A stretch of 64,000 nucleotides of DNA, taken from NCBI GenBank assembly GCA_038063455.1, contig JBBTVB010000006.1, positions 39,234 to 103,233 on the forward strand, in the 5' to 3' direction. The stretch is from Patescibacteria group bacterium. GTDB taxonomy: Bacteria; Patescibacteriota; Patescibacteriia; PEXW01. Positions 13,326 to 53,871 of this stretch are shown in pieces. Each line of letters begins with the position of its first letter. Position 1 is the first letter of the stretch. The position numbers were made by a program, and so were the translations under genes. The notes under the pieces are model-generated. The model had not been told where the DNA came from. It ran no database searches and saw only the letters and a program-made list of their open reading frames with translations.

Positions 13326-13329
13326 CCCT

Positions 13330-22466: not shown

Positions 22467-22467
22467 C

Positions 22468-22500
22468 AAAAACCCCACACTCGTCGCATGGGGTTTAAAA
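22468..22500 (-). terminator. Rho-independent terminator of the HD-domain gene
   Basis: On the minus strand the hairpin AAACCCCA-N11-TGGGGTTT is followed by TTTTGATTT. Confidence 0.6.
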
Positions 22501-22504
22501 ATAG

Positions 22505-32455: not shown

Positions 32456-32466
32456 GTACACCCAGC

Positions 32467-32549
32467 ACCACCTATGAAGCGAAACCTGCACAGTAATACT
32501 CAACCCTCAACCACGGATCTATTGGTAGGTGGTGCTGGGTAAATTTTTT
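32467..32549 (+). terminator. Long-stem hairpin (16-bp stem ACCCAGCACCACCTAT / ATAGGTGGTGCTGGGT) followed by AAATTTTTTT
   Basis: It lies directly after the lexA stop. It may terminate or attenuate read-through into the next gene. Confidence 0.5.
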
Positions 32550-32579
32550 TACTTTCCTCTTTCGGTTTTATTTCGGCTC

Positions 32580-33386: not shown

Positions 33387-33518
33387 TACCCTTTTCGTAG
33401 TAATAAGCTCTTTTCGAATCCGCAGGTAGAGGTGCATTGCGACTCTTATCTGTACCAAGGGACCTCCTGGCTGTTATCTGGGAGGTCTTTTTAATTTATG
33501 TATTCCTAATGTTACGCA

Positions 33519-34930: not shown

Positions 34931-35002
34931 AGGTTTTCCGCCTCGTGTCTGAGGGGTGGCTGTAGTATACTGTGAGCATTTGCTGGACTCAAGGAAACCT
35001 GC

Positions 35003-37255
35003 ATGTCGAGTATAGAAAAACTTCTCATTTTCGATGCCACGCGGAGCCGGACGACCACCCACGTCTTCATTGGTCACCCTAGTCCTGCCGAAGAACGGAG
35101 CCTGGGAAAGCTCGGTTTTGTTGCGGAAATTGCCGGTAGCGACCGCATCTTCCAGGAATTACTGAGCCGGTTGCAGGAATTTGTGAAGACCGCCTACTAC
35201 ACCTCGCCCGAGGCCCATGCCGACGTGGCGTTTGAACACACCATCCAAGCCACCAACCGCTACCTCAGCGAACTGGTGGGTGATTTTGGGGCAGGCTGGG
35301 TAGACCGGTTCTCCATGGTCCTCTTCACGTTTCGCGACGGCGAGGTGCACTTTGCCGATGTCGGGCAGCTTGTCGGCTTCCTGTTTCACGAGAAACAGGT
35401 GGTGGAGTTGCTCGCCGGACGCCAGCGCACCAGCCGGGTAAACCCGCTAAAAATGTTTACCTCGATTGCGACGGGCACTATCAAAGGCCAAGACGCTATT
35501 GTTTTTGGCACGGCCAACTTGCTCGACTACTTCTCCGTCGACAAGCTCCGTCGAACCGTGGTGGAAATGCCATTGGGCGGCGCGGCCCGCCAGTTGGAAC
35601 TAGCGTTACGCAACGACCCTACCCACGCTGCCTTTGCCACGGTCATCTTGCAGACCCAGGCAGTGCCGGTGCAACCCGTGCACTACGAACCCGTACGGCA
35701 ACCAGCAACCCCCGGCGCGCCACAGCGCTCACTCGACAACATGCTGGCGCAGACTGCTCAAACCCAAGCCTTTCTCACCCCCTCGCTGTGGCCGGCAATC
35801 CGCCGAACCCTCAAGCGTGGCGGCCGTCGCGGCTTCGTGCTTTTCCGTGCCTTCGTATTACGAAAGCCCACCCGCGTTTCGCCCGTGCTAGAAAAAAAGA
35901 ACGATGATTTGGACGGGCCGGTGCAACCGCGCGGCTCGAATGTCGTCACTCCGCGCTCACGCGCTGTACAGCTGCTCCCAAAAGGCACGCTCCAAAAAAT
36001 CCCCTCGTTCTTGTGGCAGCGCGGCCAAGCTGTGCTCAAGGCGACCCCTGCTATTGTCGAACGGCTTCGGACTGCTACCCAACGGCTACGCCAAGCCCCC
36101 CGAGCGCTGCCGGCGATTGTGGAAGAGCGCGTCCAAAATGTGCGAGGACTGCCCCAGCGTAACCGCTTGTACTTCTACGGCGCGGCGGGCCTGGCCGTAC
36201 TCTTTGCCATAACCCTCATCGGCGTTGGCATCCAGCGCAACCATAGCGCCACCACCAAAACCCGAGCCGCAGCCATTACAACCATCGAGGAAAAAGTTGA
36301 CCAAGCAGCATCGAGTGTTATCTATGGCGATGAAGACCGCGCCCGCACTTTGCTGCAAGAAGCCCAAACGGCAATTAGCGCCTTGCCAGACAAATCGAAA
36401 AACGACAAAGCCACCCGCAGCCGCCTGATCGGATCGGTAGAAGCCGCCCAAGCGCAAATCCGCCACATCGTTACTACTGCGCCGAGCCCACTCGTATCTC
36501 TGGCCGCAGAGGCTCAACCGGTCGGCCTGGTTTTGCTCGGGTCAGCGCTCTACACTGTTGATACCAAAACCAATGCTTTGCTCAACATCAGCACGAACGA
36601 TAAAAAAGTAACCATTGCAACCACGCTCCCAGGCGACCCGGGCGTGCAAGCCTTAGCCACGTACGGCAGCGGCACGCTCATGGCCTTGGCCGCCAACTTG
36701 GACATCATCGAGCAGCGGCCAGCAGCCAAAACTGGCACGCGATCCGCGCTCGCCACCCCAAGCAGCAACCCCAACCTGGTCGGGTTAACCACCTACAATA
36801 GTGCTGTCTACGTTGCCGATGTGGCTAACAGCGCCCTATTGCGTGCCACCAAACGTGGCGCGGTTTTCCAGGCTGCGGCTTGGCTCAAGCAATCCGCCAC
36901 GCTCAGCAACGCCGTTGACCTGGTGGTCGATGGCTCTATTTACGTGGTTGCCAGCGACGGCACAGTCCAAAAGTTTACCCAGGGCCGGCGCGACCAGTTC
37001 GTCCTCTCGCCCGTTGACCCCGCCCTTAGCAGTGCCACCAAAATTGCCGGGGACGTGAACCTGCAGAACCTGTACATCCTCGACACGGCCAGCAAACGCA
37101 TTGCGGTCTTTACCAAAACCGGCAAGTTCGTTAACCAGTACGTCCACGACAGCCTGCAAAATGTAAGCGCATTTACCGTGGACGAGCGGACGCAAAAAAT
37201 ATACCTGCTTATCGGGAACGAGGCACACGTCTTGGCTATCCAAAAAACCAAATAG
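35003..37255 (+). CDS. Large membrane protein with extracytoplasmic beta-propeller (NHL-like repeats)
   Basis: 750 aa with a central TM (LYFYGAAGLAVLFAITLIGVGI). The C-terminal repeats read ...SAVYVADVANSALL..., ...SIYVVASDGTV... and LYILDTASKRIAVFTKTGKF. Confidence 0.45.
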   Translation: MSSIEKLLIFDATRSRTTTHVFIGHPSPAEERSLGKLGFVAEIAGSDRIFQELLSRLQEFVKTAYYTSPEAHADVAFEHTIQATNRYLSELVGDFGAGWVDRFSMVLFTFRDGEVHFADVGQLVGFLFHEKQVVELLAGRQRTSRVNPLKMFTSIATGTIKGQDAIVFGTANLLDYFSVDKLRRTVVEMPLGGAARQLELALRNDPTHAAFATVILQTQAVPVQPVHYEPVRQPATPGAPQRSLDNMLAQTAQTQAFLTPSLWPAIRRTLKRGGRRGFVLFRAFVLRKPTRVSPVLEKKNDDLDGPVQPRGSNVVTPRSRAVQLLPKGTLQKIPSFLWQRGQAVLKATPAIVERLRTATQRLRQAPRALPAIVEERVQNVRGLPQRNRLYFYGAAGLAVLFAITLIGVGIQRNHSATTKTRAAAITTIEEKVDQAASSVIYGDEDRARTLLQEAQTAISALPDKSKNDKATRSRLIGSVEAAQAQIRHIVTTAPSPLVSLAAEAQPVGLVLLGSALYTVDTKTNALLNISTNDKKVTIATTLPGDPGVQALATYGSGTLMALAANLDIIEQRPAAKTGTRSALATPSSNPNLVGLTTYNSAVYVADVANSALLRATKRGAVFQAAAWLKQSATLSNAVDLVVDGSIYVVASDGTVQKFTQGRRDQFVLSPVDPALSSATKIAGDVNLQNLYILDTASKRIAVFTKTGKFVNQYVHDSLQNVSAFTVDERTQKIYLLIGNEAHVLAIQKTK

Positions 37256-37285
37256 CTCTACTGCTCGGTCGGTACCCAGCACCAG

Positions 37286-38521
37286 TCACTCCATTCCGGT
37301 GCTGGGCGGGAGAATATCCACGCCGACGGTTTTGCGGAACCCAATGCGGTCTGGCGCATGGTGGTCATCCAGGCGCAGCAACTCGCCCTCCACAATCGTC
37401 TCCTCGCCATACTTGTTGTTAATGGCATCCATAGCGCGCGCCAGGGTGCTGGACTTTGGCTGGTGAAAAAGTGAGAGTTGGTTGGTTACCGTTCGCAAGC
37501 GAAAAAGCCCCACAGCATAAAATGTCGGGCAATCGTGTTCCACCCCCGGCTGGAGCATCTGCCACACTGCCCGAAACATCGCCCGTGTACTTGTTAAACC
37601 ATCACCAAGTTTTTTGCTGCCGCCAATGTTACCACGCTGTTCCAAACGAGCATGCCCGTACACGCCGTGGGCTTCTAGGCCGAGCTCCCGCAAGCGCCGA
37701 CCGGCCCGCTCGCACAGCCGCGCCACCAGACCTTTGTGGTAGTGCATATCCCGCGTCCGCAGCCGCAGCACGTGACTGTGGCCAATAGACTTTGGTTGTC
37801 GCGGCGTTTCCAGCTCACCCATTTCCACACCGTTTACATTGGCCCACAGCTCATAGCCCCGAATACCCAGGCTCTCCAGCATATTTACCGGCGACGCAGC
37901 CATGAGCTGGTCCAGAGTAAAAATGCCGAGCGCATGTAACCGGGCAGCTGTGGCCCCGGCAATCCCCCAAGCTTCCTGCACGTCACGGCCTTTCAGGTAC
38001 GCGGCAATATTCCCGCGGTGCAAAATAACCAGGTCGCCTTTCGGCGCAGTGTCACCACCAAATTTCGCCAACCAGCGCGTAGTGGCCACACCCATAGAAC
38101 ACGTCAGCCACTCACCTACTTCATCTATAATCCGCTGCTTGATTTCATAGCCGAGTTGGGCCGCGGCTTCCAGCGATGGGACCGATCCGGTGAGGTCAAG
38201 AAAGGCCTCATCAATGGAATAGGCTTCCATGGCTTCGCTATACTCGGCCAGAATCTGAAAAATCCGCTTGGTGGTGCTGCGGTACTTAGCTGGGTCGACT
38301 TCGACAAATTTTATGTGCGGGCAGCGCTGCCTTGCTTCATCGGCCCGCACCCCCGTACGGATACCAAAGGGTTTTGCCTCTTTTGAGGAAGCAAGCACGC
38401 AACCTTGCACGGTCATAGTGGCGAGCACCGCCACCGGCTTGCCACGCAAAAATGGATTCGCCTGCTGTTCCACCGAGGCGAAATATGAATTCATGTCTAA
38501 ATGGAGGATGACACGTTGCAT
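37286..38521 (-). CDS. dinB: DNA polymerase IV (Y-family, catalytically intact)
   Basis: The N-terminal motifs HLDMNSYFASVE, SIDEAFLD and the HhH motif identify it. It is 411 aa. Confidence 0.8.
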   Translation of the reverse strand: MQRVILHLDMNSYFASVEQQANPFLRGKPVAVLATMTVQGCVLASSKEAKPFGIRTGVRADEARQRCPHIKFVEVDPAKYRSTTKRIFQILAEYSEAMEAYSIDEAFLDLTGSVPSLEAAAQLGYEIKQRIIDEVGEWLTCSMGVATTRWLAKFGGDTAPKGDLVILHRGNIAAYLKGRDVQEAWGIAGATAARLHALGIFTLDQLMAASPVNMLESLGIRGYELWANVNGVEMGELETPRQPKSIGHSHVLRLRTRDMHYHKGLVARLCERAGRRLRELGLEAHGVYGHARLEQRGNIGGSKKLGDGLTSTRAMFRAVWQMLQPGVEHDCPTFYAVGLFRLRTVTNQLSLFHQPKSSTLARAMDAINNKYGEETIVEGELLRLDDHHAPDRIGFRKTVGVDILPPSTGME

Positions 38522-46596: not shown

Positions 46597-48560
46597 TTGA
46601 GGTTTGCAAAACCAATGCTAAGGGCTTTTTCTGTGTCTGCATACTGTTTCGCTGCCGATGCGGCACCCAGCACGACAGTGACGATTGTTCGGCCCGTGGT
46701 TTTACCTTTTACTTGTGTAATTAAGCAATTACCAGACTCTTCGATGTAGCCGGTCTTAATGCCCGTAACCTGCCAGTCAGTCTCCAGCATTTTATTTCGG
46801 TTCTTAATGGTGTGGGCTTTTTTCGTATTGAGCGTACTAAAACTGTAACTGGTTTTTACTGCGACTTTGGCAATCTGTGGCTTACTCAAAGCTATTGCAG
46901 CCAGTTTTGCCATATCGGCCGCCGACCCTTGGTTGGCAGGGTCGAGACCGGTTGGGTCGGCAAAGGTGAGTGAATCGAGTCCTAAGGCTTTGGCCTTATC
47001 GTTCATGAGCTTCACAAACTGCGCTTCGGTAAGCTTCGTCGAGCGAGCCAGTGCCCGGGTAGCATTGTTTGCCGAACCAATAAGCATGGCATGCCACAAG
47101 TCGTTGGTAGTCATGGTTTCGCCCACGCTCACGTACAGGCACGAACAAATGGCGCCGTCGGTCTTTTGGTAGGTAACAATATTTTTAAACGATGGGTTGC
47201 GATCAAGGTAAACCAATGCCGTCATGAGTTTCGTTAGGCTGGCTACTGGGTGTCGCTCGTCAATATTTTTGCCTGCCACCACCATACCTTTGTCGACATC
47301 GTAGGCAATGGCCGCTGTGCTACTTACGGGCAATGCTACTAGAGCAGTGCTACCGGGATCCGTCGGTGGTAGGGTCGGCTGCGAGGCATCAATCGATTCT
47401 CCTAAAACTTTAGGATCTACGACAGCCACCTTCACCTGGGCTAAGCCGCCATTCTTGCCCTTAATCTTTTTAAAGGCTGTGGAGACAAGGTCAATCACCC
47501 GCCCGCGGACGTACGGCCCGCGCGAAACCACCTTGACCACGGTGGATTTATTATTCTCTAGGTTAGTAACCTTGAGCTTCGTCCCCATGGGGTAACGGTT
47601 GTGCGCCACGCCGTCCGGGTACTTGCGGCTAGCGTACCAGCTGGCAATCCCAATTTCCTCGCCCAGGTCATCCACCACCACCACGTAACCCGCAACGTAC
47701 ACCGTGTTGCCTTGCGTGAGTTCCCACACCTTCTTGGCTGGATTGTAGAAGAGTACGCGCTGGCGCAAAAAACCTTTTTGCGAAACTTTGGGTTGTATAA
47801 CCGCGCCCTTGGCCATCCGCATTAGCACGCCTGCATCTGTGCGAAATGCCAAGAATGCTGCAGGGCTTCTTTGGCTGTAGCGTATTGGGAGTGGTGCCGG
47901 TAGCGCTAGGTCGGGAGTCAAAATAAAAGCCGCTGGTTCAACCAAGGCTTGTGCCCGTAGCGTGTAGGTTGCGGTTGCAGTCGCGGTGCTCATGGCTAGC
48001 GAACCCACGGGTACGGGCAGTATTTGCGTTTGAGGCGTAACCGCAACATCCGGCCCAAGCGCACTGGGCGCCGTTGCGGTGTCAGTAACCGGGACCAGCG
48101 TGGTGTGGAGCCAGCGTGTCGTGCCAATCATCATGTTGGCCGCATCAAGTTTTGTGCCTACAATATTCCACATGTTTGCCACTGGGTCGTACCCCAGCAA
48201 AACCGTAGCGGTGCTTGGCACCGGCGTAGCTTTTACCTTTAGCCAAAGTGTGTTACTCGCTTGGGTTTCGGAGGCGACAGTATCAATCTGCAAACGAAAG
48301 ACCGTCCCGGCTGCAAGGTAGCGCGCGGGCAACGGTATAGGAAGGGGCGCATCTGGCGTAATGGTAACGTTTGCCGGCGCGCTAAAAAGGTTGGGGCGCA
48401 AGCCAAGAATAAACTGGTCGCCCACCCGAACTTCCGTACCCTTGGAGGCGTAGTCGGTGGTCAGCTCCCGCACTGTCGGCTCGGCAGCACTGGCTGGCAG
48501 CGCAACTGCAAGCAACGCGAGGAGACTAAGTGTTATGATAATTTGCGGTCTACTTGTCAT
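46593..48560 (-). CDS. Secreted fusion protein: RlpA-like double-psi beta-barrel domain + D-alanyl-D-alanine carboxypeptidase (S11) domain
   Basis: It has a signal peptide. The RlpA-like core is IGIASWYASRKYPDGVAHNRYPMGTKLKVTNLENNKSTVVKVVSRGPYVRGRVIDLS. The S11 motifs are SLTK (SxxK), SAN (SxN) and KTGY (KTG). Confidence 0.65.
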   Translation of the reverse strand: MTSRPQIIITLSLLALLAVALPASAAEPTVRELTTDYASKGTEVRVGDQFILGLRPNLFSAPANVTITPDAPLPIPLPARYLAAGTVFRLQIDTVASETQASNTLWLKVKATPVPSTATVLLGYDPVANMWNIVGTKLDAANMMIGTTRWLHTTLVPVTDTATAPSALGPDVAVTPQTQILPVPVGSLAMSTATATATYTLRAQALVEPAAFILTPDLALPAPLPIRYSQRSPAAFLAFRTDAGVLMRMAKGAVIQPKVSQKGFLRQRVLFYNPAKKVWELTQGNTVYVAGYVVVVDDLGEEIGIASWYASRKYPDGVAHNRYPMGTKLKVTNLENNKSTVVKVVSRGPYVRGRVIDLVSTAFKKIKGKNGGLAQVKVAVVDPKVLGESIDASQPTLPPTDPGSTALVALPVSSTAAIAYDVDKGMVVAGKNIDERHPVASLTKLMTALVYLDRNPSFKNIVTYQKTDGAICSCLYVSVGETMTTNDLWHAMLIGSANNATRALARSTKLTEAQFVKLMNDKAKALGLDSLTFADPTGLDPANQGSAADMAKLAAIALSKPQIAKVAVKTSYSFSTLNTKKAHTIKNRNKMLETDWQVTGIKTGYIEESGNCLITQVKGKTTGRTIVTVVLGAASAAKQYADTEKALSIGFANLK

Positions 48561-48599
48561 ACGTGCAATGATTGGTTACACTCGATTTCGCGGTACCTG

Positions 48600-48673
48600 C
48601 GGGTATAGTACAGTGGTAGTATGCGTCCTTCCCATGGATGAGATACGGGTTCGATTCCCGTTACCCGCTCCAG
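48600..48673 (+). tRNA. tRNA-Gly (anticodon CCC)
   Basis: Acceptor GCGGGTA/TACCCGC, anticodon loop TTCCCAT, T-arm ACGGG-TTCGATT-CCCGT. CCA is encoded. Confidence 0.8.
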
Positions 48674-48743
48674 AGGTAAGCTTGCCAATTTGGAGTCTTA
48701 GACTGAACAGAGGTTTATACTTTGAATAGACAGAGGGAATCGA

Positions 48744-48857
48744 ACGGGTGCGACCCATTGGGAGCACCCCGGCCCACAGGGCGATTCCCGTTACCCGCTC
48801 CAGCTCGTTTCGCGCTTCGTGCTCGCGTACGCTGCGCACCTGTCGCGCGGGGACCCC
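48744..48857. repeat. Degenerate tRNA fragments: inverted copy of motif GGGGTGCTCCCRATGGGTCGCACCCGT (48744-48770), then a duplicated tRNA-Gly 3' end (T-arm + acceptor + CCA) fused to a truncated trailer element ending GGGGACCCC
   Basis: gattcccgttacccgctcca at 48783-48802 repeats the tRNA-Gly 3' 20 nt. The following ccagctcgtttcgcgc...cgcggggacccc parallels the trailers after the other tRNAs. Confidence 0.6.
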
Positions 48858-48878
48858 AGGGGAAAGTTTGAAAGATGT

Positions 48879-48954
48879 GCCGATGTAGCTCAGCTGGTAG
48901 AGCAATGCTTTCGTAAAGCATGGGTCGGAGGTTCGAATCCTCTCATCGGCTCCA
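48879..48954 (+). tRNA. tRNA-Thr (anticodon CGU)
   Basis: Acceptor GCCGATG/CATCGGC, anticodon loop TTCGTAA, T-arm GGAGG-TTCGAAT-CCTCT. CCA is encoded. Confidence 0.8.
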
Positions 48955-49097
48955 GCTCGTTACGGGCGTCGGGTTCCGCGTCCCCGCATCCGCGAGGCCG
49001 CTGCACCCTCAACCCGCAACTTCGCTTGACCCCACGACCGCGTGCTCGTCGTCCCGCGCAAGCGCGTGACTCCTGCGCGCCACGCTCGTGGGGACCC
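48955..49097 (+). repeat. Conserved tRNA 3'-trailer element, copy A (core 49023-49097: CGCTTGACCCCACGACCGCGTGCTC...GCGCGCCACGCTCGTGGGGACCCC)
   Basis: It starts immediately after the CCA with GCTCGTTACG. Copies also follow tRNA-Trp and tRNA-Thr(GGU), and there is internal dyad symmetry (CCCCACGA...TCGTGGGG). Confidence 0.65.
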
Positions 49098-49104
49098 CGG
49101 GAAG

Positions 49105-50214
49105 CTATTCCTGCGTGTTTGTATTTGCGTCAGCTTCAGGGTCACAGGCAGGCTCGGTTTTTGCTTGCACGCCGCACTCGGCTTCCCACCGGAATCGGGG
49201 TTCGAACAGCATTACCCGGCTTTCCTTCACTTTCGTATTTACCGTATCTTGTAGCCAGGTGTTAAAGTTGGGGGCTTTCAAAATTCGGCGCAGCGTGTAC
49301 ATCGTGCCATCGGCCTTCTTGGCGGCAGCTTCGGTTTTTTCCACCTGTACAATTTCGTAGCCGCGTGTGGTTTCCAGCACCTCGCTCACCTGCCCGGCCT
49401 TTAAGGCTTTCAGGGCTGTTGCTGCATCCCCGTACGCTTCTTCAAGCTGCTTGGTATTCAAAGCATCGAGCAAGCCACTCTTGGCTGCCGAGGCATCGTC
49501 GCTCTTCGCTTTAGCCACATCACCAAAAGTCTTGGCGTCTTTGGCAACGCCGTCCCGAATCCCCTGCGTTTCTTTCTTGGCGTCTGCATAAAACCCCGCC
49601 GCAATCTTATCCTGCACCACTTGCGGTTTTATGAGTTTGGCTTTGAACTGTGCCACGTCCCAGCCGTAAAGCTGCTGGATGTACTTTTCAACCTCCGTGG
49701 CATTGCCCGACTGCTCGACATAACTGTCGTAGGTTGCATCAATATCGGCTTGCGTAACGGTAATATTTTTTTCCTCAGCAATTGTGTTAAGTACGCTTTC
49801 CCCGACCATCTTATTTAAAATAATCCGGCGCGTGTATACATCCTGGCTCAGACCCAGTTTATCGGCAGCGTCAGGGGCAGCATTGCGTTCCAAAAAGCTA
49901 GAAATGTTTGGCACGTCGGTCTGGTATTCGTGGTACGACAGCCAATCCCCGCCCACCACGGCCACCGGGAATGGGATGTACTTGGCTAGCCACAGCAATG
50001 CATCATTTTGCCAGCTAAAACGCATGTAGCCTACGGCAAAAACCAAAACAATTGCCACAATACCTGCCCCAACCCACAGGCCAATACGCTTGAGCCAATG
50101 AATGTGTGGCGGGGGCAGTTGCTTGAGTTCTGGGTGGGCAGGATTTGGCAGCTCATGCTCTGGCTTGCTGAGTTCGCTGCGGACGGCTTCGTGATCGGGG
50201 TGGATGTCTGGCAT
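49105..50214 (-). CDS. Membrane-anchored SurA/PrsA-like chaperone-domain protein
   Basis: It has an N-terminal TM (IGLWVGAGIVAIVLVFAVGY) and a SurA-N-like helical domain. The assignment is weak. Confidence 0.4.
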   Translation of the reverse strand: MPDIHPDHEAVRSELSKPEHELPNPAHPELKQLPPPHIHWLKRIGLWVGAGIVAIVLVFAVGYMRFSWQNDALLWLAKYIPFPVAVVGGDWLSYHEYQTDVPNISSFLERNAAPDAADKLGLSQDVYTRRIILNKMVGESVLNTIAEEKNITVTQADIDATYDSYVEQSGNATEVEKYIQQLYGWDVAQFKAKLIKPQVVQDKIAAGFYADAKKETQGIRDGVAKDAKTFGDVAKAKSDDASAAKSGLLDALNTKQLEEAYGDAATALKALKAGQVSEVLETTRGYEIVQVEKTEAAAKKADGTMYTLRRILKAPNFNTWLQDTVNTKVKESRVMLFEPRFRWEAECGVQAKTEPACDPEADANTNTQE

Positions 50215-50219
50215 GGGAA

Positions 50220-50630
50220 TTAGTTACGGGCGGGCCTAAAGAAGAATTTCCACCAACGCTGAGAGTTCGACGTACCGCCAGCATCGGTGTGAGTTGCAAC
50301 TTCGGAATCGGTTGTAGAAAGTTGTCGGGTTTCGGGCAAGATGAGCAGGGATTCCCCGGGGCGCTGCACGTTCAGCCGCTTGCGGGCTTCCCGCTCGCGA
50401 AAGCTATCGGTGTTAATCGAGGCGACGTACTCGCCTAACGTTCGGTTTTGCGCTTCCAACTCGGCGATCTGCTGTTCCAGGGTAGCAACTTCTTCTCGAA
50501 GGGAAAGCCTGCGCACCACTTCTTTGGTAATGCCGACCACCAAAAAAGCGATAAGCAGTATTTCAAAAACGATCACGCCTCGAGACGTCAGCGCGCGCCG
50601 TAATGCTCGTTTGCGTTCTTGATTTCTCAT
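50220..50630 (-). CDS. Septum formation initiator FtsB/DivIC-like
   Basis: 136 aa with one TM (VIVFEILLIAFLVVGI) then a coiled coil (LREEVATLEQQIAELEAQNRTL). Confidence 0.55.
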   Translation of the reverse strand: MRNQERKRALRRALTSRGVIVFEILLIAFLVVGITKEVVRRLSLREEVATLEQQIAELEAQNRTLGEYVASINTDSFREREARKRLNVQRPGESLLILPETRQLSTTDSEVATHTDAGGTSNSQRWWKFFFRPARN

Positions 50631-50713
50631 GGCAGGACATTGGTTTTACGCTTGTACATTGTCACACAATCGTCTGTGTTCGTCAACCCAGGACCACTTT
50701 GCACCTGTTACAA

Positions 50714-51397
50714 CTAGACTATTTCCTCACGCGTAACCTCGCGTGCATCACCGGGGGCGAGCGCACCAAGCACAAGCCTGTTAATACGCACTCGAGTAAG
50801 ACGCAGAACATCCACCTGGACCCGCCCAAACATGCGACGGATTTGCCGCTTCCAGCCCTGGTGTAAAACCACGCGATAGGTCTTTGGTCCGACCTCTTCT
50901 AGCTTGTCAAAATAGGCCCGACCCTCTTGGAGCTTTACCCCTTGCCGCAGCTCGGCCAGTGCATCAGCATCCAAATGGTGCGACGTGCCAATTTCGTACT
51001 CTTTTTCGTGCTGGAAGCGCGGGTGGGTTAGCTCATTTGCAAGCGCGCCGTCATTGGTCAGCAGCATGAGCCCCTCGGAGTCCTTGTCGAGGCGGCCGGC
51101 AATAACTAGGTCGCGCACGCCTGGGATGATGTCATAAATGGTTCGCTCACTTTTGTACTGCGCCCGCGTCGAAACCACGCCAACAGGTTTGTTGACGGCA
51201 AGATACCGAAACGTCGTAGGTGGTTTTAAGTCGATCCCATCCACCCGCACCGTATCTTTTTCCGGGTCAATACTGGTGCCGAGCTTGGCGACTTGCAAGC
51301 CATTTACAAAAACTTTCCCAGCCGAAATCAGCGTCTCGGCTTTCCGCCGTGACACTATGCCGGTACTGGCAATGAATTTATGGAGACGGGTCAACAT
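50714..51397 (-). CDS. Pseudouridine synthase, RsuA/RluB family
   Basis: It has an S4 domain (KFIASTGIVSRRKAETLISAGKVFVNG) and the catalytic motif GRLDKDSEGLMLLTNDG. Confidence 0.8.
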   Translation of the reverse strand: MLTRLHKFIASTGIVSRRKAETLISAGKVFVNGLQVAKLGTSIDPEKDTVRVDGIDLKPPTTFRYLAVNKPVGVVSTRAQYKSERTIYDIIPGVRDLVIAGRLDKDSEGLMLLTNDGALANELTHPRFQHEKEYEIGTSHHLDADALAELRQGVKLQEGRAYFDKLEEVGPKTYRVVLHQGWKRQIRRMFGRVQVDVLRLTRVRINRLVLGALAPGDAREVTREEIV

Positions 51398-51407
51398 AGC
51401 TATGCTT

Positions 51408-51541
51408 GGGGTCCCCGTGAGCGTGGCGCGCACGAACGCAGTGAGGAGCACGCGGTCATGGGGTCAAGCGAGGCTTCGTCCCCGACTGCGGAGCGGGTTC
51501 GGCGCTGGCGGATACGCGGAGCGAAGAGGGGCGAAACGAGC
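51408..51541 (-). repeat. Conserved tRNA 3'-trailer element, copy B (downstream of tRNA-Trp)
   Basis: On the minus strand the sequence after the CCA reads GCTCGTTTCGCCCC...CGCTTGACCCCATGACCGCGTGCTC...GCGCGCCACGCTCACGGGGACCCC. Confidence 0.65.
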
Positions 51542-51616
51542 TGGCGGGGGCACTAGGATTCGAACCTAGAATAACGGTTTTGGAGACCGTTGTGATAACC
51601 GTTTCACCATGCCCCC
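51542..51616 (-). tRNA. tRNA-Trp (anticodon CCA)
   Basis: Minus-strand cloverleaf: acceptor GGGGGCA/TGCCCCC, anticodon loop CTCCAAA, T-arm CTAGG-TTCGAAT-CCTAG. CCA is encoded. Confidence 0.8.
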
Positions 51617-51622
51617 AAGTTG

Positions 51623-51868
51623 TTAAGCAATAGCGAGACGTTTCTTCAATGCTTGCAATGCGGAGCCATATGCTTTCAATTTCTGTTCTCGCACCCTTGC
51701 CAAAGCTTCGTTATTATAAGCTTCATAATACACCAGCTCTGGCTTATCCATGTGGCGCGTTGTTTGCGTCTGACCTTGCGCGTGTTCAGCGAGGCGACGC
51801 TGAAGATTGTTGGTCGAGCCAATATAATTTCGACCCTGTGCATCCTTTAGTAAATAGACGTAATACAT
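51623..51868 (-). CDS. GIY-YIG nuclease-domain protein (UPF0213-like, ~81 aa)
   Basis: MYYVYLLKDAQGRNYIGSTNNLQRRLAEHAQG is a textbook GIY-YIG motif (YxVYxL...G..YIGsT.NL.rRL.eH). The ORF-track start at 51937 lies inside an upstream hairpin. Confidence 0.7.
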   Translation of the reverse strand: MYYVYLLKDAQGRNYIGSTNNLQRRLAEHAQGQTQTTRHMDKPELVYYEAYNNEALARVREQKLKAYGSALQALKKRLAIA

Positions 51869-51939
51869 AGTGGTTTTGGACCCAGCCCTTCGCGAAGGGC
51901 TGGGTAGAGACCGCTGCCTGCCCAGCCATGCGCGCATGG

Positions 51940-51965
51940 CTGGGTGATAGCCGTTTCACCATGCC
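51940..51965 (-). repeat. Duplicated 5' fragment of tRNA-Trp (acceptor 5' strand + D-arm; 24/26 identical) upstream of the GIY-YIG ORF
   Basis: The minus strand has GGGGGCATGGTGAAACGGCTATCACC, against GGGGGCATGGTGAAACGGTTATCACA in the intact gene. Two GC-rich hairpins follow. Confidence 0.65.
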
Positions 51966-51995
51966 CCCATAGGGTGTAAACGCGTTGTAAAGACG

Positions 51996-52151
51996 TTATT
52001 TCGTTTCCTTATGCAACGTATGCTTGCCGCACCAGGTGCAGTGTTTCTTCAACTCTAAGCGACCCTTGAGGGTCTTCTTATTTTTTTTCGAATGGTAGTT
52101 TACGTGCTTGCAAACTGTGCACTCGAGATTTATCAGGTTGTCTTGGGACAT
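51996..52151 (-). CDS. rpmG: 50S ribosomal protein L33
   Basis: [51 protein letters not shown] shows the Zn-ribbon L33 pattern. Confidence 0.8.
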
Positions 52152-52190
52152 ACTATTATGAGTAATGAAGAAATGTATTAAATATTTCGC

Positions 52191-52266
52191 TGGAGCCACC
52201 CGTCGGATTCGAACCGACGACCTTCGCTTTACAAAAGCGTTGCTCTACCAGCTGAGCTAGGGTGGC
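52191..52266 (-). tRNA. tRNA-Thr (anticodon UGU)
   Basis: Acceptor GCCACCC/GGGTGGC, anticodon loop TTTGTAA, T-arm GTCGG-TTCGAAT-CCGAC. CCA is encoded. It lies 39 nt upstream of rpmG. Confidence 0.8.
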
Positions 52267-52287
52267 CTAGGTTCTGGTAACCGAGGT

Positions 52288-52360
52288 GCCGGAGACCCCG
52301 CCGTGGCGGGGCGACCTTCGCTTTACAAAAGCGTTGCTCTACCAGCTGAGCTACTCCGGC
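52288..52360 (-). pseudogene. tRNA-Thr(UGU)-derived pseudo-tRNA: own acceptor stem (GCCGGAG/CTCCGGC), intact D- and anticodon arms identical over ~42 nt to tRNA-Thr(UGU), T-arm replaced by GC hairpin CCCCGCC-GTG-GCGGGG
   Basis: Minus-strand read: GCCGGAGTAGCTCAGCTGGTAGAGCAACGCTTTTGTAAAGCGAAGGTCGCCCCGCCACGGCGGGGTCTCCGGC. There is no TΨC loop. Confidence 0.55.
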
Positions 52361-52440
52361 AAGATTTTGAAGAACTACGAGGATCCCGCGTCCGCCTCCA
52401 TAGTAGCAGCAAACGGGCGGGACAAAAGCGTTGCTCTTCC

Positions 52441-52557
52441 GGGGTGCTCCCGATGGGTCGCACCCGTCCCGCCTACGGCGGGACCCAGCTGAGTCCCGAC
52501 ACCGCGTTGCGGTGTCGCGGATCCTCGCCCCGACGATGCTACGTCGTGGGCGGGACT
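52441..52557. repeat. Composite repeat block: GGGGTGCTCCCGATGGGTCGCACCCGT motif, hairpin GTCCCGCC-TAC-GGCGGGAC, and ~65-nt element GAGTCCCGAC-hairpin-GGATCCTCGCCCCGACG...CGTCGTGGGCGGGACTA (second copy at 52887-52950)
   Basis: All motifs recur elsewhere in the window: 48744-48770 (inverted), 22268-22284, 24402-24419 and 52887-52950. Confidence 0.6.
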
Positions 52558-52622
52558 ATCCCGGCAAATTTTGAAAGTCAGTTGAGTGACATAGTCGTAC
52601 TTTTCAAGAATCTTCTCGGGGA

Positions 52623-52763
52623 TTCCCCACGAGCGTGGCGCGCAGGAGTCACGCGCTTGCGCGAGACGACGAGCACGCGGTCGTGGGGTCAAGCGAGGCT
52701 TCGTGCGATGGGCGCAGTGGGCTGCCGAATGGCGGCACACGGAGCTCGGAGCGCGAAACGAGC
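52623..52763 (-). repeat. Conserved tRNA 3'-trailer element, copy C (downstream of tRNA-Thr GGU)
   Basis: Minus strand after the CCA: GCTCGTTTCGCGC...CGCTTGACCCCACGACCGCGTGCTCGTCGTCTCGCGCAAGCGCGTGACTCCTGCGCGCCACGCTCGTGGGGAATC. It is about 97% identical to copy A over the 75-nt core. Confidence 0.65.
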
Positions 52764-52839
52764 TGGAGCCGATGGCCGGAATTGAACCGGCGACCTACTC
52801 CTTACCATGGAGTTGCTCTACCAGCTGAGCTACATCGGC
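52764..52839 (-). tRNA. tRNA-Thr (anticodon GGU)
   Basis: Acceptor GCCGATG/CATCGGC, anticodon loop ATGGTAA, T-arm GCCGG-TTCAATT-CCGGC. CCA is encoded. Confidence 0.75.
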
Positions 52840-52886
52840 ATAATGTTTGGAAAACGTTTGTCAGGTTCAAGGTGCAAGGCCTCGCT

Positions 52887-52950
52887 GAGTCCCGACCCCG
52901 TAGGGGTCGTGGATCCTCGCCCCGACGCTGCTGCGTCGTGGGCGGGACTA
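52887..52950. repeat. Second copy of the GAGTCCCGAC-hairpin-GGATCCTCGCCCCGACG...GGGCGGGACTA element, followed by a duplicated 13 nt of the tRNA-Thr(GGU) 5' end (CTACATCGGCATA)
   Basis: Compare 52491-52557. ctacatcggcata also occurs at the 5' end of the tRNA-Thr(GGU) gene (52829-52845). Confidence 0.6.
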
Positions 52951-52980
52951 CATCGGCATATAGATTGGGAACCTACGACT

Positions 52981-53871
52981 CTACAATTCTTTCACGGCTT
53001 GTGCAAGTTCCTCAAGTTTTTGATTCTCTGGGTTAGCGGCTTGTAGTTTTTCGAGTGCTGCTTTTGCGAGATTTTTTCGTTTGCTAGTTAGTGCAAACTG
53101 GAGCAACGCATCGAGATACTTTGGGTTTGCCGGTTCCAGTTTAACGGCTTCTTGGTACGCAGTCTCGGCTTTGTCGATGTTGCCCAGGTTTTCTTCGGTG
53201 ACACCCAGTTCATAGTGCGTACCTGCAGTGAGGGCGTTGAGGCTCACAGACTTTAAATAGTCGGCTTCCGCTTCGGCAAACTTCCCTTCCTGGGTGTCAA
53301 TATTACCCAACCGCGCGTAGGCAACATCGCTATCTTGCTGCAACTTGAGTACGAACTTCAGAGCTTCGCGAGCATTGACGTAATCTTTGCGGGCAGTTGC
53401 AGCATCGGCCAATCCCAGGTACGCGTCAATATTCTTAGGGTCTAAGCTGACGACATCCACAAAGTGCTGCTCGGCCCGGGGCCAATCCCCTGCCGCAACC
53501 GCAGTTTGCGCTTCGGTGAGGGCGGCGGCAACTTTTGCGCGCAGCGCATCCGGGTCGTCAATGGCTTGCTGCACCACAATCTTCCGACGATACTCGCGTT
53601 CTAACTGCGTCAATTTTGTAAAAATGTTTTGTCCGGTGGTGCGCACGCCGCGGAAAAAACTAGCAAACCCCTTGGCAATAACCGCTTCCACATTCCCGAG
53701 CTTCTGCTGCAGGCGCTTATCTAAAATTTGCTGTTTGCGAAGTTGATGCTGGTGCTTCGGTATAGCTTCAATGCGGATGCTAGCCAACTGCGGCAGCTTA
53801 CGCCACACAACCACCGCGCAGGCAGCCACGCTAGCGGCAAACACTCCTAGTAAAATCCAATCAACAAGCAT
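52981..53871 (-). CDS. Membrane-anchored TPR-repeat protein
   Basis: It has an N-terminal TM and multiple TPR units (AYLGLADAATARKDYVNAREALKFVLKL..., AYARLGNIDTQEGKFAEAEADYLKSV..., THYELGVTEENLGNIDKAETAYQEAVKLEP). Confidence 0.6.
   Translation of the reverse strand: MLVDWILLGVFAASVAACAVVVWRKLPQLASIRIEAIPKHQHQLRKQQILDKRLQQKLGNVEAVIAKGFASFFRGVRTTGQNIFTKLTQLEREYRRKIVVQQAIDDPDALRAKVAAALTEAQTAVAAGDWPRAEQHFVDVVSLDPKNIDAYLGLADAATARKDYVNAREALKFVLKLQQDSDVAYARLGNIDTQEGKFAEAEADYLKSVSLNALTAGTHYELGVTEENLGNIDKAETAYQEAVKLEPANPKYLDALLQFALTSKRKNLAKAALEKLQAANPENQKLEELAQAVKEL

What the first reader, a model, noticed from the sequence alone, without database searches (positions are those of the whole stretch)
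52267..52980. tRNA-Thr array decayed into pseudo-tRNA and shuffled tRNA fragments
Seen in sequence: between tRNA-Thr(UGU) and tRNA-Thr(GGU) lies a tRNA-Thr(UGU) copy with its own perfectly paired acceptor stem and an intact D/anticodon region, but with the T-arm replaced by a GC hairpin (52288-52360). There is also a 20-nt anticodon-arm fragment (ACAAAAGCGTTGCTCT, about 52420). A 65-nt element is present twice (52491-52557 and 52887-52950), the second followed by a duplicated 13 nt of the tRNA-Thr(GGU) 5' end. The motif GGGGTGCTCCCGATGGGTCGCACCCGT also appears inverted beside tRNA-Gly at 48744. Inference: repeated duplication and recombination among tRNA genes, perhaps driven by the trailer element and hairpin repeats. 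The pseudo-tRNA could yield a T-armless tRNA-like RNA, since it is folded enough for RNase P/Z recognition at the acceptor stem.
Basis: seen in the sequence. Interest (0 to 1): 0.55.

Follow-up and report, generated by a model that had tools for sequence, protein, structure and literature searches.

The report
Relic tRNA-Thr genes riddled with hairpins
Between two working threonine-tRNA genes of an uncultured groundwater bacterium lie three broken tRNA copies stuffed with GC-rich hairpin inserts, one local example of an apparently undescribed habit in this group of replacing tRNA genes by placing new copies inside or beside old ones.

Summary
All five by-eye matches are confirmed, with E-values from 1e-5 to 1e-17, and two independent assemblies carry the same sequence.

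On the tRNA strand the pieces are collinear, not shuffled:
- a 16-nt 5' stub of tRNA-Thr(GGU);
- a 5' half of tRNA-Thr(UGU);
- a full-length tRNA-Thr(UGU) copy whose T arm is replaced by a hairpin.

The stub and the half each carry the same 58-62-nt double-hairpin insert at position 10/11. All inserts belong to one family of GC palindromes bounded by TCCCG...CGGGA.

The T-arm-less copy is the ortholog of the working tRNA-Thr(UGU) of two related genera. A second allele does the job in this window. Relatives show the whole range, from clean arrays to complete tRNAs nested up to three deep inside split older ones, often flanked by inverted arms. The window's tRNA-Trp gene (with a mini GIY-YIG gene) and tRNA-Gly gene show the same scars.

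Best reading: these are relics of tRNA replacement, later colonised by palindromic mini-elements and exchanged between lineages. Function of the relics is not excluded, because their pairing is kept by compensatory changes. No mobilising enzyme was found, and I found no description of this in the candidate phyla radiation (CPR, the Patescibacteria) in the literature searches.

The parts
52948..52957 (-). Pseudo-D part 1: GCCGATGTAG, positions 1-10 of tRNA-Thr(GGU). The leader bases next to it are also duplicated, out to 52961.
   Evidence: Direct reading; repeat I12. The same stub with the same breakpoints is present in L004.
52890..52947 (-). Double-hairpin element copy 1 (TCCCGCC...CGAGGATCC...GTCGGGA), inserted between tRNA positions 10 and 11.
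   Evidence: Fold -43.2 kcal/mol, z -6.6. 98% of cells pair, and 5 of 16 pairs show compensatory changes among 4 copies.
52884..52889 (-). Pseudo-D part 2: CTCAGC, tRNA positions 11-16. Homology to the tRNA ends here.
   Evidence: L004 ends at the same point.
52764..52839 (-). Functional tRNA-Thr(GGU).
   Evidence: ARAGORN; Rfam 71.1 bits.
52618..52763 (-). 146-nt structured trailer that starts directly after the CCA. Other copies lie at 48955-49104(+) and 51400-51541(-), with a short form at 48804-48857(+).
   Evidence: nhmmer finds it only in this species and L005, plus a weak hit in L087. It forms two long hairpin domains; 17 of 39 pairs have compensatory changes.
52556..52565 (-). Pseudo-A part 1: GCCGGGATAG, positions 1-10 of a B-type tRNA-Thr(UGU). 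It is preceded by the leader ttcaaaattt, which resembles the leader of pseudo-B.
52494..52555 (-). Double-hairpin element copy 2, at the same 10/11 position.
52485..52493 (-). Pseudo-A part 2: CTCAGCTGG (D arm and D loop).
52440..52484 (-). D-loop insert made of two hairpins: GTCCCGCCGTAGGCGGGAC (52466-52484) and GGGTGCGACCCATCGGGAGCACCCCG (52440-52465).
   Evidence: The second hairpin recurs beside tRNA-Gly at 48744-48772 in the same orientation relative to the tRNA. The same ...CCCCGGAA|GAGCAAC junction occurs in L007. D-loop inserts at the same site occur in L108, L110 and L119.
52423..52439 (-). Pseudo-A part 3: GAAGAGCAACGCTTTTG (D-stem 3' side and anticodon stem, running into the anticodon). 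The 3' half of this tRNA is absent.
   Evidence: Repeat family D4.
52361..52422 (-). Hairpin TCCCGCC...GCGGGA (52384-52422) plus leader TCCTCGTAGTTCTTCAAAATCTT (52361-52383).
   Evidence: 92% identical to L004, and the ends are conserved in L099 and L108. In L004 and L099 the leader has an inverted partner downstream of the tRNA.
52287..52360 (-). Pseudo-B: a full-length tRNA-Thr(UGU) copy of the GCCGGAG allele. Its T arm is replaced by GCCCCGCCACGGCGGGGT (52295-52312) and its CCA has changed to CCT.
   Evidence: Rfam 44.9 bits; fold. Its 5' 49 nt are 98% identical to the intact L004 tRNA. Alignment.
52191..52266 (-). Functional tRNA-Thr(UGU) of the GCCACCC allele. This allele is the only Thr(UGU) gene at this locus in L087 and the only intact one in L007.
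51866..51968 (-). 5' fragment of tRNA-Trp directly upstream of the GIY-YIG start codon. It carries two CCCAGCC...GGCTGGG hairpins (51921-51944 and 51880-51905), the second in the anticodon loop.
   Evidence: (D6). The homologous hairpin shows compensatory changes in L086 and is identical in L119.
51623..51865 (-). 81-aa GIY-YIG nuclease gene, lying between the tRNA-Trp 5' fragment and the intact tRNA-Trp (51542-51616).
   Evidence: Pfam PF01541, 2.5e-13. The same arrangement occurs in L086, L103 and L116. Homolog P0008 sits just upstream of tRNA-Trp in L167/L168, but no 5' fragment was looked for there.
48673..48803 (+). 108-nt insert after the intact tRNA-Gly(CCC) (48599-48672), followed by an exact 22-nt duplicate of the tRNA's 3' end starting in the T loop (48782-48803). 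The insert ends with GGGAATCGAAC, an inverted copy of the T loop, plus two hairpins.
   Evidence: Repeat family D2; (100%, 22 nt); fold. The same unit lies next to tRNA-Trp in L004 and next to tRNA-Tyr and tRNA-Trp in L007.

Best explanation
The interval is a graveyard of superseded tRNA-Thr genes. Only 52764-52839 (GGU) and 52191-52266 (UGU) are working genes.

Proposed sequence of events:
1. A resident tRNA gene is broken, or recombines, inside one of its conserved loops (D loop, anticodon loop or T loop).
2. A complete replacement tRNA becomes installed inside or next to it. It is often a different allele and is often bracketed by inverted arms beginning TCCCG. Function is never lost.
3. 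The orphaned 5' and 3' pieces persist, and direct repeats partly collapse.
4. A family of GC-rich palindromic mini-elements accumulates in the loops of the orphans, where insertion is harmless. These elements are bounded by TCCCG...CGGGA and range from a simple hairpin, through the 58-62-nt double hairpin, to longer hairpins. In some orphans a hairpin replaces the T loop.
5. Array segments move between related lineages by recombination anchored in the conserved tRNA sequence.

In this window the stub before Thr(GGU), the 5' half (pseudo-A) and the T-arm-less copy (pseudo-B) are such orphans. Pseudo-B is the inactivated GCCGGAG allele. The GCCACCC allele has taken over.

What is shown: the anatomy, the homologies, the nested architectures in relatives, the enrichment of the palindromes, their compensatory changes, and the patchy distribution.

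What is inferred: the breaks, the nuclease responsible (possibly GIY-YIG type), the mobility of the palindromes, and the lack of function of the relics.
For: Anatomy on the tRNA strand.

Orthology and alleles.
- Pseudo-B is the ortholog of an intact tRNA in L004 and L005.
- The functional copy is the allele carried by L087 and L007.

Range of states in relatives.
- L005 and L087 have clean arrays.
- L004 is the closest relative of L087 by EF-Ts (88%), yet it has a homologous scrambled array. There the other allele is the dead one, and its T arm is replaced by the same hairpin.

Complete tRNAs nested inside split older tRNAs with matching acceptor halves.
- L108, L119 (its Thr(GGU) nest has matching halves, its Thr(UGU) nest does not), L110, L118 three deep, and L086 for tRNA-Trp.
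- Inner and outer copies are usually different alleles.

Inverted arms. Arms of at least 8 bp abut 10 of 183 tRNAs, against about 0.06% in shuffles.

Palindromes.
- The TCCCGC...GCGGGA hairpin occurs 5 times in the window against 0.15 expected.
- GC hairpins are 8-fold denser within 150 nt of tRNAs or fragments.
- The double-hairpin element keeps its pairing through compensatory changes.

Exchange between lineages. The hairpin-plus-leader-plus-B segment is 95% identical to L004 over 122 nt. The coding and flanking DNA that aligns between the two is about 75-78% identical.

The same scars occur at tRNA-Trp and tRNA-Gly in the window.

Precedent for breaks inside tRNA genes. The phage GIY-YIG nuclease SegB cuts within tRNA genes at RAWTSGAAC, which is the T-loop sequence read on the other strand. 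It drives recombination-dependent duplication of tRNA segments (PMC13096335; PMC2330249, listed in the search).
Against: - No transposase, integrase or recombinase was found among about 67 ORFs of the window.
- No target-site duplications were seen.
- The inverted arms of different cassettes share little beyond a C-rich start (TCCCG, or CCCC in L118).
- The local GIY-YIG protein is only 81 aa, with no DNA-binding domain. Three of its homologs sit between ordinary genes far from any tRNA.
- The stub with its double hairpin has the same breakpoints in two genera. Several relic features recur in distant lineages with their pairing maintained, including the D-loop insert site and the conserved ends of the hairpin-plus-leader module. 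That could mean selection for a function rather than junk.
- The hairpin enrichment near tRNAs is confounded with being intergenic.
- There are no expression data.
Confidence: 0.55

Rival explanations
1. The relics and hairpins are functional. One version has them acting in cis, as processing stems, terminators, insulators or promoter-proximal elements for the neighbouring tRNAs, or as leaders for the GIY-YIG mRNA. Another has them acting as stable tRNA-like RNAs; for example, a T-arm-less decoy could present the Thr(UGU) anticodon arm without entering translation.
For: - Pairing is kept by compensatory changes in the double hairpin, the trailer, the Trp anticodon-loop hairpin and the inverted arms.
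- The stub and the hairpin-plus-leader module are retained in two or more genera, in small genomes.
- The hairpins stay GC-rich even in relatives with 33-39% GC.
- Pseudo-B keeps a perfect acceptor stem and scores as a tRNA.
Against: - L005 and L087 do without any of it.
- A complete T-arm-less copy exists only in this species. Its ortholog elsewhere is an ordinary tRNA, and its CCA is lost.
- DNA palindromes can keep their symmetry without any RNA function.
- Nothing in Rfam matches.
- The promoter and terminator scans were uninformative.
Confidence: 0.22
2. This is purely local tandem duplication, slippage and decay of tRNA genes. No mobile palindromes and no horizontal input are involved, and the hairpins are ordinary intergenic secondary structure.
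For: - Direct repeats of 42 nt lie 94 nt apart.
- In L118 the innermost and outermost copies are identical.
- In L007 the duplicated tRNA-Trp 3' end carries its trailer along, as a tandem duplication would.
- No mobilising gene was found.
Against: - The same palindrome family sits at several unrelated sites in the window (13305, 22269, 24403).
- It sits at the same tRNA loop positions in different tRNAs and genomes.
- Inner and outer copies are usually different alleles.
- Identity to L004 is 95%, against about 75-78% for aligned flanking and coding DNA.
- The sister lineages L004 and L087 differ completely in array state.
Confidence: 0.13
3. The inserts are intron-like and are removed from the RNA, in the manner of archaeal bulge-helix-bulge introns or split tRNAs. 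On this view the interrupted copies are real tRNA genes.
For: - In L118 the outer copies become perfect tRNAs once the inserts are removed.
- The inserts sit in loops and are bounded by paired arms.
- The 5' halves end, and the 3' halves begin, with complementary GC stretches.
Against: - In the window, pseudo-A has no 3' half and pseudo-B has no T arm even after removing the hairpin.
- The acceptor halves of L004 do not match each other.
- Bacteria are not known to have a tRNA splicing endonuclease (general knowledge).
- No group I core was detected in the window.
Confidence: 0.04

Closest known systems
Disrupted tRNA genes in Archaea, especially the Caldiarchaeum subterraneum tRNA-Thr(GGU) locus (Sugahara et al. 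2012, PMC3293823)
   Same: A 5' fragment of tRNA-Thr(GGU) lies upstream of an intact copy. The authors explain it by integration and recombination of mobile DNA. There is heterogeneity between related genomes.
   Different: - This case is bacterial.
- No recombinase ORF lies between the fragment and the gene.
- The inserts are GC palindromes, not bulge-helix-bulge introns.
- Complete tRNAs nest inside old ones.
SegB, a free-standing GIY-YIG homing endonuclease in the tRNA gene clusters of T-even phages (PMC2330249, seen only as the title and abstract listed; PMC13096335)
   Same: A GIY-YIG gene is embedded among tRNA genes. SegB cuts within tRNA genes at a T-loop motif and causes recombination-dependent segmental duplication of tRNA-containing DNA. 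In the window, breakpoints fall in T loops and T loops are replaced.
   Different: - The protein here is 81 aa, a bare catalytic domain, and sits in a cellular genome.
- Cleavage is untested.
- Several homologs are not linked to tRNAs.
- The Thr array itself contains no nuclease gene.
Integrase-mediated insertion into tRNA genes, with duplication of the tRNA 3' end at attL/attR (general knowledge)
   Same: tRNA-Gly is followed by an exact 22-nt repeat of its 3' end starting in the T loop. tRNA-Trp 3' fragments occur downstream of intact genes in L007 and L086.
   Different: - The insert is only 108 nt, and no integrase is present.
- Upstream 5' fragments are not what integrases normally leave.
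- In L007 the trailer is duplicated too.
Short selfish GC-rich palindromes: REP/BIME elements, Rickettsia palindromic elements, yeast mitochondrial GC clusters and fungal double-hairpin elements (general knowledge), and the palindromic repeats of Volvox organelle genomes (PMC2670323, seen only as the title and abstract listed)
   Same: These are short, GC-rich, multi-copy palindromes with conserved ends and variable interiors. They are tolerated inside non-essential RNA-gene sequence and stand out in AT-richer genomes.
   Different: - The ends are different (TCCCG/CGGGA).
- They concentrate in the loops of tRNA relics.
- Some members enclose a whole tRNA gene.
- No associated transposase is known.
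T-arm-less mitochondrial tRNAs of nematodes (general knowledge)
   Same: A cloverleaf that lacks a canonical T arm.
   Different: - In those tRNAs a short replacement loop stands in for the T arm, and specialised EF-Tu proteins are needed.
- Here a stable 7-bp GC hairpin replaces the arm in a redundant copy whose ortholog is a normal tRNA.

Membership tests
Functional bacterial tRNA (for pseudo-B, 52287-52360) | Score above the Rfam tRNA gathering threshold, with acceptor, D and anticodon arms present | tested here: met
   44.9 bits against 29; fold.
Functional bacterial tRNA (for pseudo-B, 52287-52360) | T arm with a 7-nt T loop (TTCRANY) | tested here: not met
   It is replaced by a 7-bp stem with a 4-nt loop, GCCCCGCCACGGCGGGGT. 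ARAGORN does not call the gene.
Functional bacterial tRNA (for pseudo-B, 52287-52360) | Encoded 3' CCA, as in the other Thr, Trp and Gly tRNAs of this window, or evidence of processing and charging | tested here: not met
   The 3' end reads ...CTCCGGCACCT, whereas the orthologs read ...CTCCGGCTCCA. Processing cannot be tested with these tools.
GIY-YIG homing endonuclease of the SegB type | GIY-YIG catalytic domain | tested here: met
   PF01541, 2.5e-13, residues 1-65.
GIY-YIG homing endonuclease of the SegB type | C-terminal DNA-binding domain that gives site specificity | tested here: not met
   The protein is 81 aa and has no second domain.
GIY-YIG homing endonuclease of the SegB type | Consistent linkage to its target genes, with presence/absence polymorphism at the site | tested here: inconclusive
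   The gene lies between L33 and tRNA-Trp in the window, L086, L103 and L116, and a homolog lies just upstream of tRNA-Trp in L167/L168. It is absent from that site in L004, L005 and L087. Homologs P0028, P0014 and P0096 lie between ordinary genes.
GIY-YIG homing endonuclease of the SegB type | Cleavage of tRNA-gene DNA | not testable with these tools
   This needs biochemistry.
Integrase-type island in a tRNA gene | Direct repeat of the tRNA 3' portion flanking the insert | tested here: met
   For tRNA-Gly, 22 nt at 100% identity: 48652-48673 and 48782-48803. There is no such repeat in the Thr array.
Integrase-type island in a tRNA gene | An integrase gene and cargo between the repeats | tested here: not met
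   The insert is 108 nt. No integrase was found among about 67 ORFs.
MITE / REP-like mobile palindromes | A multi-copy family with conserved termini and more copies than chance | tested here: met
   TCCCGC...GCGGGA occurs 5 times against 0.15 expected. The double hairpin occurs twice in the window and twice in L004. Related hairpins recur across loci.
MITE / REP-like mobile palindromes | An associated transposase (for example RAYT or TnpA) or target-site duplications | tested here: not met
   No such gene is present in the window. No target-site duplications are seen at the junctions. The rest of the genome was not available.
MITE / REP-like mobile palindromes | Insertion polymorphism at orthologous sites | tested here: inconclusive
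   The arrays differ between genera. Three assemblies of the same species are identical.
Group I intron in a tRNA | Ribozyme core detectable by a covariance model | tested here: not met
   There is no Intron_gpI match in 48400-53100 even at E up to 5. The inserts are 18-62 nt.
Archaeal-type split or intron-containing tRNA | Halves or exons that reconstitute a complete cloverleaf with matching acceptor strands | tested here: not met
   In the window, pseudo-A lacks a 3' half and pseudo-B lacks a T arm. This feature is met for the outer copies in L118, L108 and L110.
Archaeal-type split or intron-containing tRNA | A bulge-helix-bulge motif at the junctions and a splicing endonuclease in the genome | not tested
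   Only 64 kb of the genome is available. The junctions were inspected by eye only.

The most novel reading that the evidence does not exclude
Patescibacteria harbour an undescribed class of DNA parasites specialised on tRNA genes. One part consists of self-replacing cassettes: a complete tRNA gene bracketed by inverted arms beginning TCCCG (CCCC in some relatives), sometimes with a mini GIY-YIG gene. These cassettes home into the loops of the resident tRNA of the same identity, so insertion is harmless and the cassette then becomes indispensable. The other part consists of derived cargo-less palindromes that target the same loops. The window's Thr array would be an old, partly collapsed nest of such events.
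Probability: 0.3. Interest if true: 0.8.

Novelty: new variant of a known kind. Interest (0 to 1): 0.62.

Why it matters
Disrupted, nested and fragmentary tRNA genes have so far been discussed almost entirely for Archaea, where they feed ideas about how tRNA genes evolve.

This work shows a bacterial counterpart in the candidate phyla radiation:
- old tRNA genes split in their loops, with complete replacement tRNAs inside them;
- relics sealed by one family of GC palindromes;
- a small GIY-YIG gene repeatedly wedged into tRNA-Trp.

If the mechanism holds, it would be a way for selfish DNA to invade an essential, single-copy gene without cost. It would also explain several practical problems:
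- assemblies of these genomes break at tRNA arrays. The same-species assembly breaks exactly at trailer repeats, and the contigs of four relatives end about 1-2.5 kb beyond tsf, within or next to the array;
- tRNA finders miss or over-call genes there;
- anticodon repertoires inferred from metagenome-assembled genomes may be wrong.

It also yields testable substrates for a possible tRNA-gene-cutting nuclease.

Tried and rejected
- Exact look-up of the L33 protein found nothing on record.
- Split-tRNA reading: the acceptor halves of pseudo-A and the L004 3' fragment do not pair, and the T arm is missing. Rejected for the window.
- Group I intron: there is no Rfam signal in the window, even at permissive E-values. 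Relatives L098 and L110 do have ~195-nt group-I-like inserts, but these are unrelated to the window's hairpins.
- Integrase, transposase or RAYT as driver: none found among about 67 ORFs.
- Phage origin: there is no GIY-YIG relative and no T-arm-hairpin pattern in the viral contigs.
- General linkage of this mini GIY-YIG family to tRNAs: rejected. P0028, P0014 and P0096 sit between pyrB/pyrC, next to a PemK toxin gene, and between ybaK and scpA. Only a subset sits at tRNA-Trp.
- I first read the repeats at 22290-22345 as DnaA boxes of a replication origin. Rejected: the neighbours are mraZ/rsmH and an HD protein.
- The promoter and terminator scan of the array was uninformative.
- The trailer as driver of the rearrangements: no evidence. 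It is restricted to this species and L005 (with a weak hit in L087), whereas scrambled arrays occur in lineages with other trailers.
- A loose regex census for T arms replaced by hairpins gave mostly false positives in GC-rich Actinobacteria. Only the cases read by eye are used.
Full report
**Source and reality of the sequence.** The window comes from an uncultured Patescibacteria (candidate phyla radiation, CPR) genome.
- The proteins flanking the array are ordinary housekeeping genes: a TPR protein, EF-Ts, S2, L33, RluB-type pseudouridine synthase, DivIC and a PpiC-type isomerase.
- Contigs CAYIMS010000002.1 and CAYIMS010000007.1 of assembly GCA_964364675.1 match the window at 100% identity.
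- They abut exactly at 52623/52624, and the second contig ends at 49095.
- Both breakpoints are the edges of a 73-nt, 98.6% identical inverted repeat, 49022-49094 against 52624-52696.
- An ENA contig from a Hainich groundwater sample spans 52817-51249 at 99.94% identity.
- The array is therefore real and is the kind of sequence that breaks assemblies.

**Checking the observation.**
- ARAGORN finds tRNA-Thr(UGU) at 52191-52266 and tRNA-Thr(GGU) at 52764-52839, both on the minus strand.
- Rfam additionally scores 52287-52360 as a tRNA at 44.9 bits, against a gathering score of 29.
- That sequence folds as a cloverleaf with a perfect acceptor stem, a D arm and an anticodon arm. A 7-bp stem with a 4-nt loop stands in place of the T arm.
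- No repeat partner lies outside 48.6-53.0 kb of the window.

**Anatomy on the tRNA strand.** Read 5' to 3' on the minus strand, the pieces are collinear.
1. Pseudo-D: GCCGATGTAG | 58-nt double hairpin | CTCAGC. A 44-nt spacer follows, then the intact tRNA-Thr(GGU) and a 146-nt trailer.
2. Pseudo-A: GCCGGGATAG | 62-nt double hairpin | CTCAGCTGG | two hairpins | GAAGAGCAACGCTTTTG. This is a 5' half that stops in the anticodon.
3. A 39-nt hairpin TCCCGCC...GCGGGA and a 23-nt leader.
4. Pseudo-B: full length, with a hairpin replacing the T arm and CCA changed to CCT.
5. A 20-nt spacer, then the intact tRNA-Thr(UGU), then rpmG.

All inserts sit in tRNA loops: position 10/11, the D loop, the anticodon loop and the T arm. 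All begin with (G)TCCCGCC or a close variant.

**The inserts are one palindrome family.**
- TCCCGC-N-GCGGGA occurs five times in the 64-kb window, against 0.15 expected. Three copies lie far from tRNAs, at 13305, 22269 and 24403.
- The double-hairpin element has a conserved skeleton, GTCCCG ... CGAGGATSC ... CGA...TCGG. GTCCCG pairs with CG.AGGAT.
- Among its four known copies (two in the window, two in L004), 98% of cells pair and 5 of 16 pairs show compensatory changes. Versions with the partner slid by 1-3 columns pair at 30-47%.
- Across the related loci, perfect GC hairpins are about 8-fold denser within 150 nt of tRNAs or fragments than elsewhere (1.08 against 0.13 per kb).
- That contrast is partly one of intergenic against coding DNA.

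**Comparison with relatives.** Relatives were found through EF-Ts (genome collection) and L33 (metagenomes).
- The contigs of the four closest EF-Ts relatives (L003-L006) end about 1-2.5 kb beyond tsf, inside or right beside the tRNA array.
- L005 and L087 have clean arrays: Thr(GGU), a trailer, one Thr(UGU), rpmG, Trp. They carry different Thr(UGU) alleles: acceptor GCCGGAG in L005 and GCCACCC in L087.
- The window carries both alleles. GCCGGAG is the T-arm-less pseudo-B, and GCCACCC is the working gene.
- L004 also carries remains of both, but the other way round. GCCGGAG is intact, with its anticodon mutated to GGT. Only a 3' fragment of GCCACCC remains, and its T arm is replaced by GTCCCGCCACGGCGGGAC, the same hairpin.
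- L004 also has pseudo-D with identical breakpoints, and a pseudo-A.
- L004 is the closest relative of L087 (EF-Ts 88%), while the window is 74-76% from all of these. Array state therefore does not follow relatedness.
- The hairpin-plus-leader-plus-5'-half segment is 95% identical between the window and L004 over 122 nt. The coding and flanking DNA that aligns between the two is 75-78% identical.
- The ends of this module are also conserved in L099 and L108, whose interiors have become AT-rich.

**Nested tRNAs.** More distant relatives show what the window's fragments probably derive from.
- In L108 an older tRNA-Thr(UGU) (GCCAGCG...CGCTGGCTCCA) has a D-loop insert and an anticodon-loop insert, and its T arm is replaced by GTCCCGCGGCCGCGGGAC. 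It is split in the anticodon stem by a complete tRNA of another allele.
- L119 shows the same thing for both Thr(GGU) and Thr(UGU). L110 shows it for Thr(UGU).
- L118 has three Thr(GGU) genes nested inside one another. The two outer ones become perfect tRNAs if the inserts are removed.
- L086 has a tRNA-Trp whose 5' fragment and 3' fragment pair with each other but are separated by a GIY-YIG gene plus a complete tRNA-Trp of a different type.
- The inner tRNA is often abutted by perfect inverted arms, for example TCCCGACTGA|tRNA|TCAGTCGGGA and TCTCCCGCCACCTCT|tRNA|AGAGGTGGCGGGAGA.
- Arms of at least 8 bp occur at 10 of 183 distinct tRNAs, against about 0.06% of shuffled flanks.
- Overall, 30 of 85 loci hold tRNA fragments outside called genes. 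A few of these are truncations at contig ends.

**The same scars at the other tRNAs of the window.**
- tRNA-Trp (51542-51616) is preceded by an 81-aa GIY-YIG gene (Pfam 2.5e-13).
- Upstream of that gene lies a 5' fragment of tRNA-Trp carrying two CCCAGCC...GGCTGGG hairpins, one of them in the anticodon loop.
- The arrangement 'hairpin-bearing 5' Trp fragment, GIY-YIG, intact tRNA-Trp' recurs in L086, L103 and L116.
- A further homolog lies just upstream of tRNA-Trp in L167/L168; no fragment was looked for there.
- The anticodon-loop hairpin differs between the window and L086 by compensatory changes around a constant TCGCGA centre, and is identical in L119.
- Other homologs of the protein lie between ordinary genes with no tRNA nearby, so the family as a whole is not tRNA-specific.
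- tRNA-Gly(CCC) is followed by a 108-nt insert and an exact 22-nt copy of its own 3' end beginning in the T loop.
- The insert ends with an inverted copy of the T loop (GGGAATCGAAC) followed by two hairpins. The first of these is the motif also found in pseudo-A.
- The same unit flanks tRNA-Trp in L004 and tRNA-Tyr and tRNA-Trp in L007. In L007 the tRNA-Tyr junction is a literal palindrome, GGTTCGAATCCCATGGGATTCGAACGG.

**The trailer.** The 146-nt sequence after the CCA of Thr(GGU), Thr(CGU) and Trp, with a short form after the tRNA-Gly duplicate, is a separate family.
- nhmmer finds it only in this species and L005, with a weak partial hit in L087.
- It folds into two long hairpin domains, and 17 of 39 pairs carry compensatory changes.
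- L099 has a different, about 240-nt trailer shared by its tRNA-Gly and tRNA-Thr(GGU).
- I found no evidence that the trailer causes the rearrangements. It does cause assembly breaks, and it may allow inversion of 49095-52623.

**Mechanism.** Two things are shown.
- Relics of older tRNA genes sit next to, or around, complete replacement genes.
- One family of palindromes occupies their loops.

The rest is inferred.
- The events may start with breaks or recombination inside conserved tRNA loops.
- The precedent is phage SegB. This GIY-YIG enzyme cuts within tRNA genes at RAWTSGAAC, the T-loop sequence on the other strand, and drives recombination-dependent segmental duplication of tRNA DNA (PMC13096335).
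- T-loop breakpoints, fold-back palindromes at T loops, and T loops replaced by hairpins in redundant copies all fit such a nuclease.
- Against this, the local GIY-YIG protein is a bare 81-aa domain and is untested.
- No transposase, integrase or recombinase was found among about 67 ORFs of the window.
- Who moves the palindromes, if anyone does, is therefore unknown.
- The archaeal model of Sugahara et al., a tRNA-Thr(GGU) 5' fragment left by mobile-element integration, is the closest published parallel (PMC3293823).

**Could the relics be functional?**
- For: pairing is maintained by compensatory changes, relics are retained in small genomes, and GC-rich stems persist in AT-rich relatives.
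- Against: close relatives manage with clean arrays, and a complete T-arm-less copy is unique to this species. Its ortholog is an ordinary tRNA, its CCA is lost, and palindromic DNA can keep its symmetry without any RNA role.
- I put about 0.2 on a cis or trans function and about 0.55 on relics plus selfish palindromes.

**Novelty.** Six full-text searches found nothing describing tRNA fragments, nested tRNAs or tRNA-linked palindromes in CPR bacteria. A CPR ribosome paper read (PMC9297842) reports only rRNA insertions and introns for the group. The components have known relatives: tRNA-targeting mobile DNA, GIY-YIG genes in tRNA clusters, and selfish GC palindromes. I therefore file this as a new variant of a known kind.

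Noticed in passing
window 49022-49094 and 52624-52696: A 73-nt, 98.6% identical inverted repeat, formed by the trailers of tRNA-Thr(CGU) and tRNA-Thr(GGU), brackets a 3.5-kb segment. It coincides exactly with the contig breakpoints of assembly GCA_964364675.1. The segment could be invertible.
   Followed up: partly
window 12819-13346: A DUF559 / Vsr-like endonuclease ORF (12918-13286, minus strand; Pfam 5.9e-28) is bracketed by direct copies of a 22-nt hairpin, CCCCTCCTTAT..AAGGAGGGG, at 12819-12840 and 13325-13346. A TCCCGC...GCGGGA hairpin lies at 13305-13320. It looks like another small nuclease cassette.
   Followed up: partly
window 22232-22504: The hairpin GTCCCGCCTAGCGGGAC (22268-22284) lies upstream of mraZ, beside three GTGGATAA / GTGGGGATAA repeats. 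This looks like an MraZ operator. I first mistook the repeats for DnaA boxes.
   Followed up: partly
window 24305-24673: A GC-rich, hairpin-dense intergenic stretch that includes TCCCGCCTATGCGGGA at 24403-24418. It has no Rfam match. It could be an unannotated RNA or another cluster of palindromes.
   Followed up: no
window 31835-38521: LexA lies next to two Y-family polymerase genes (32580-33386 and 37286-38521) and an unannotated 750-aa ORF (35003-37255). This is an SOS-mutagenesis-type cluster.
   Followed up: no
L098 2020-2220 and 2320-2513; L110 719-913: tRNA-Thr(GGU) and tRNA-Tyr of relatives are split in the anticodon loop by inserts of about 195-200 nt. The tRNA-Tyr inserts carry group-I-like motifs (GAGACTAGATACCGG...AAGATATAGTCC). 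Rfam does not report them at the gathering threshold. L003's tRNA-Thr(GGU) also seems interrupted after GGTAA.
   Followed up: partly
L118 3359-3735: Three tRNA-Thr(GGU) genes are nested inside one another, each inner unit bracketed by inverted arms. The outermost and innermost copies are identical in sequence.
   Followed up: partly
L004 12017-12092: The intact copy orthologous to pseudo-B has anticodon GGT where relatives have TGT. That locus therefore carries two Thr(GGU) genes and no Thr(UGU) gene.
   Followed up: no
L099 301-540 and 3380-3655 (minus strand); L108 3900-3960: Relatives have their own long structured trailers shared by different tRNAs. These end in a CCCCAAATTT...AAATTTGGGG hairpin. 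tRNA trailers seem to evolve in concert within each genome.
   Followed up: partly
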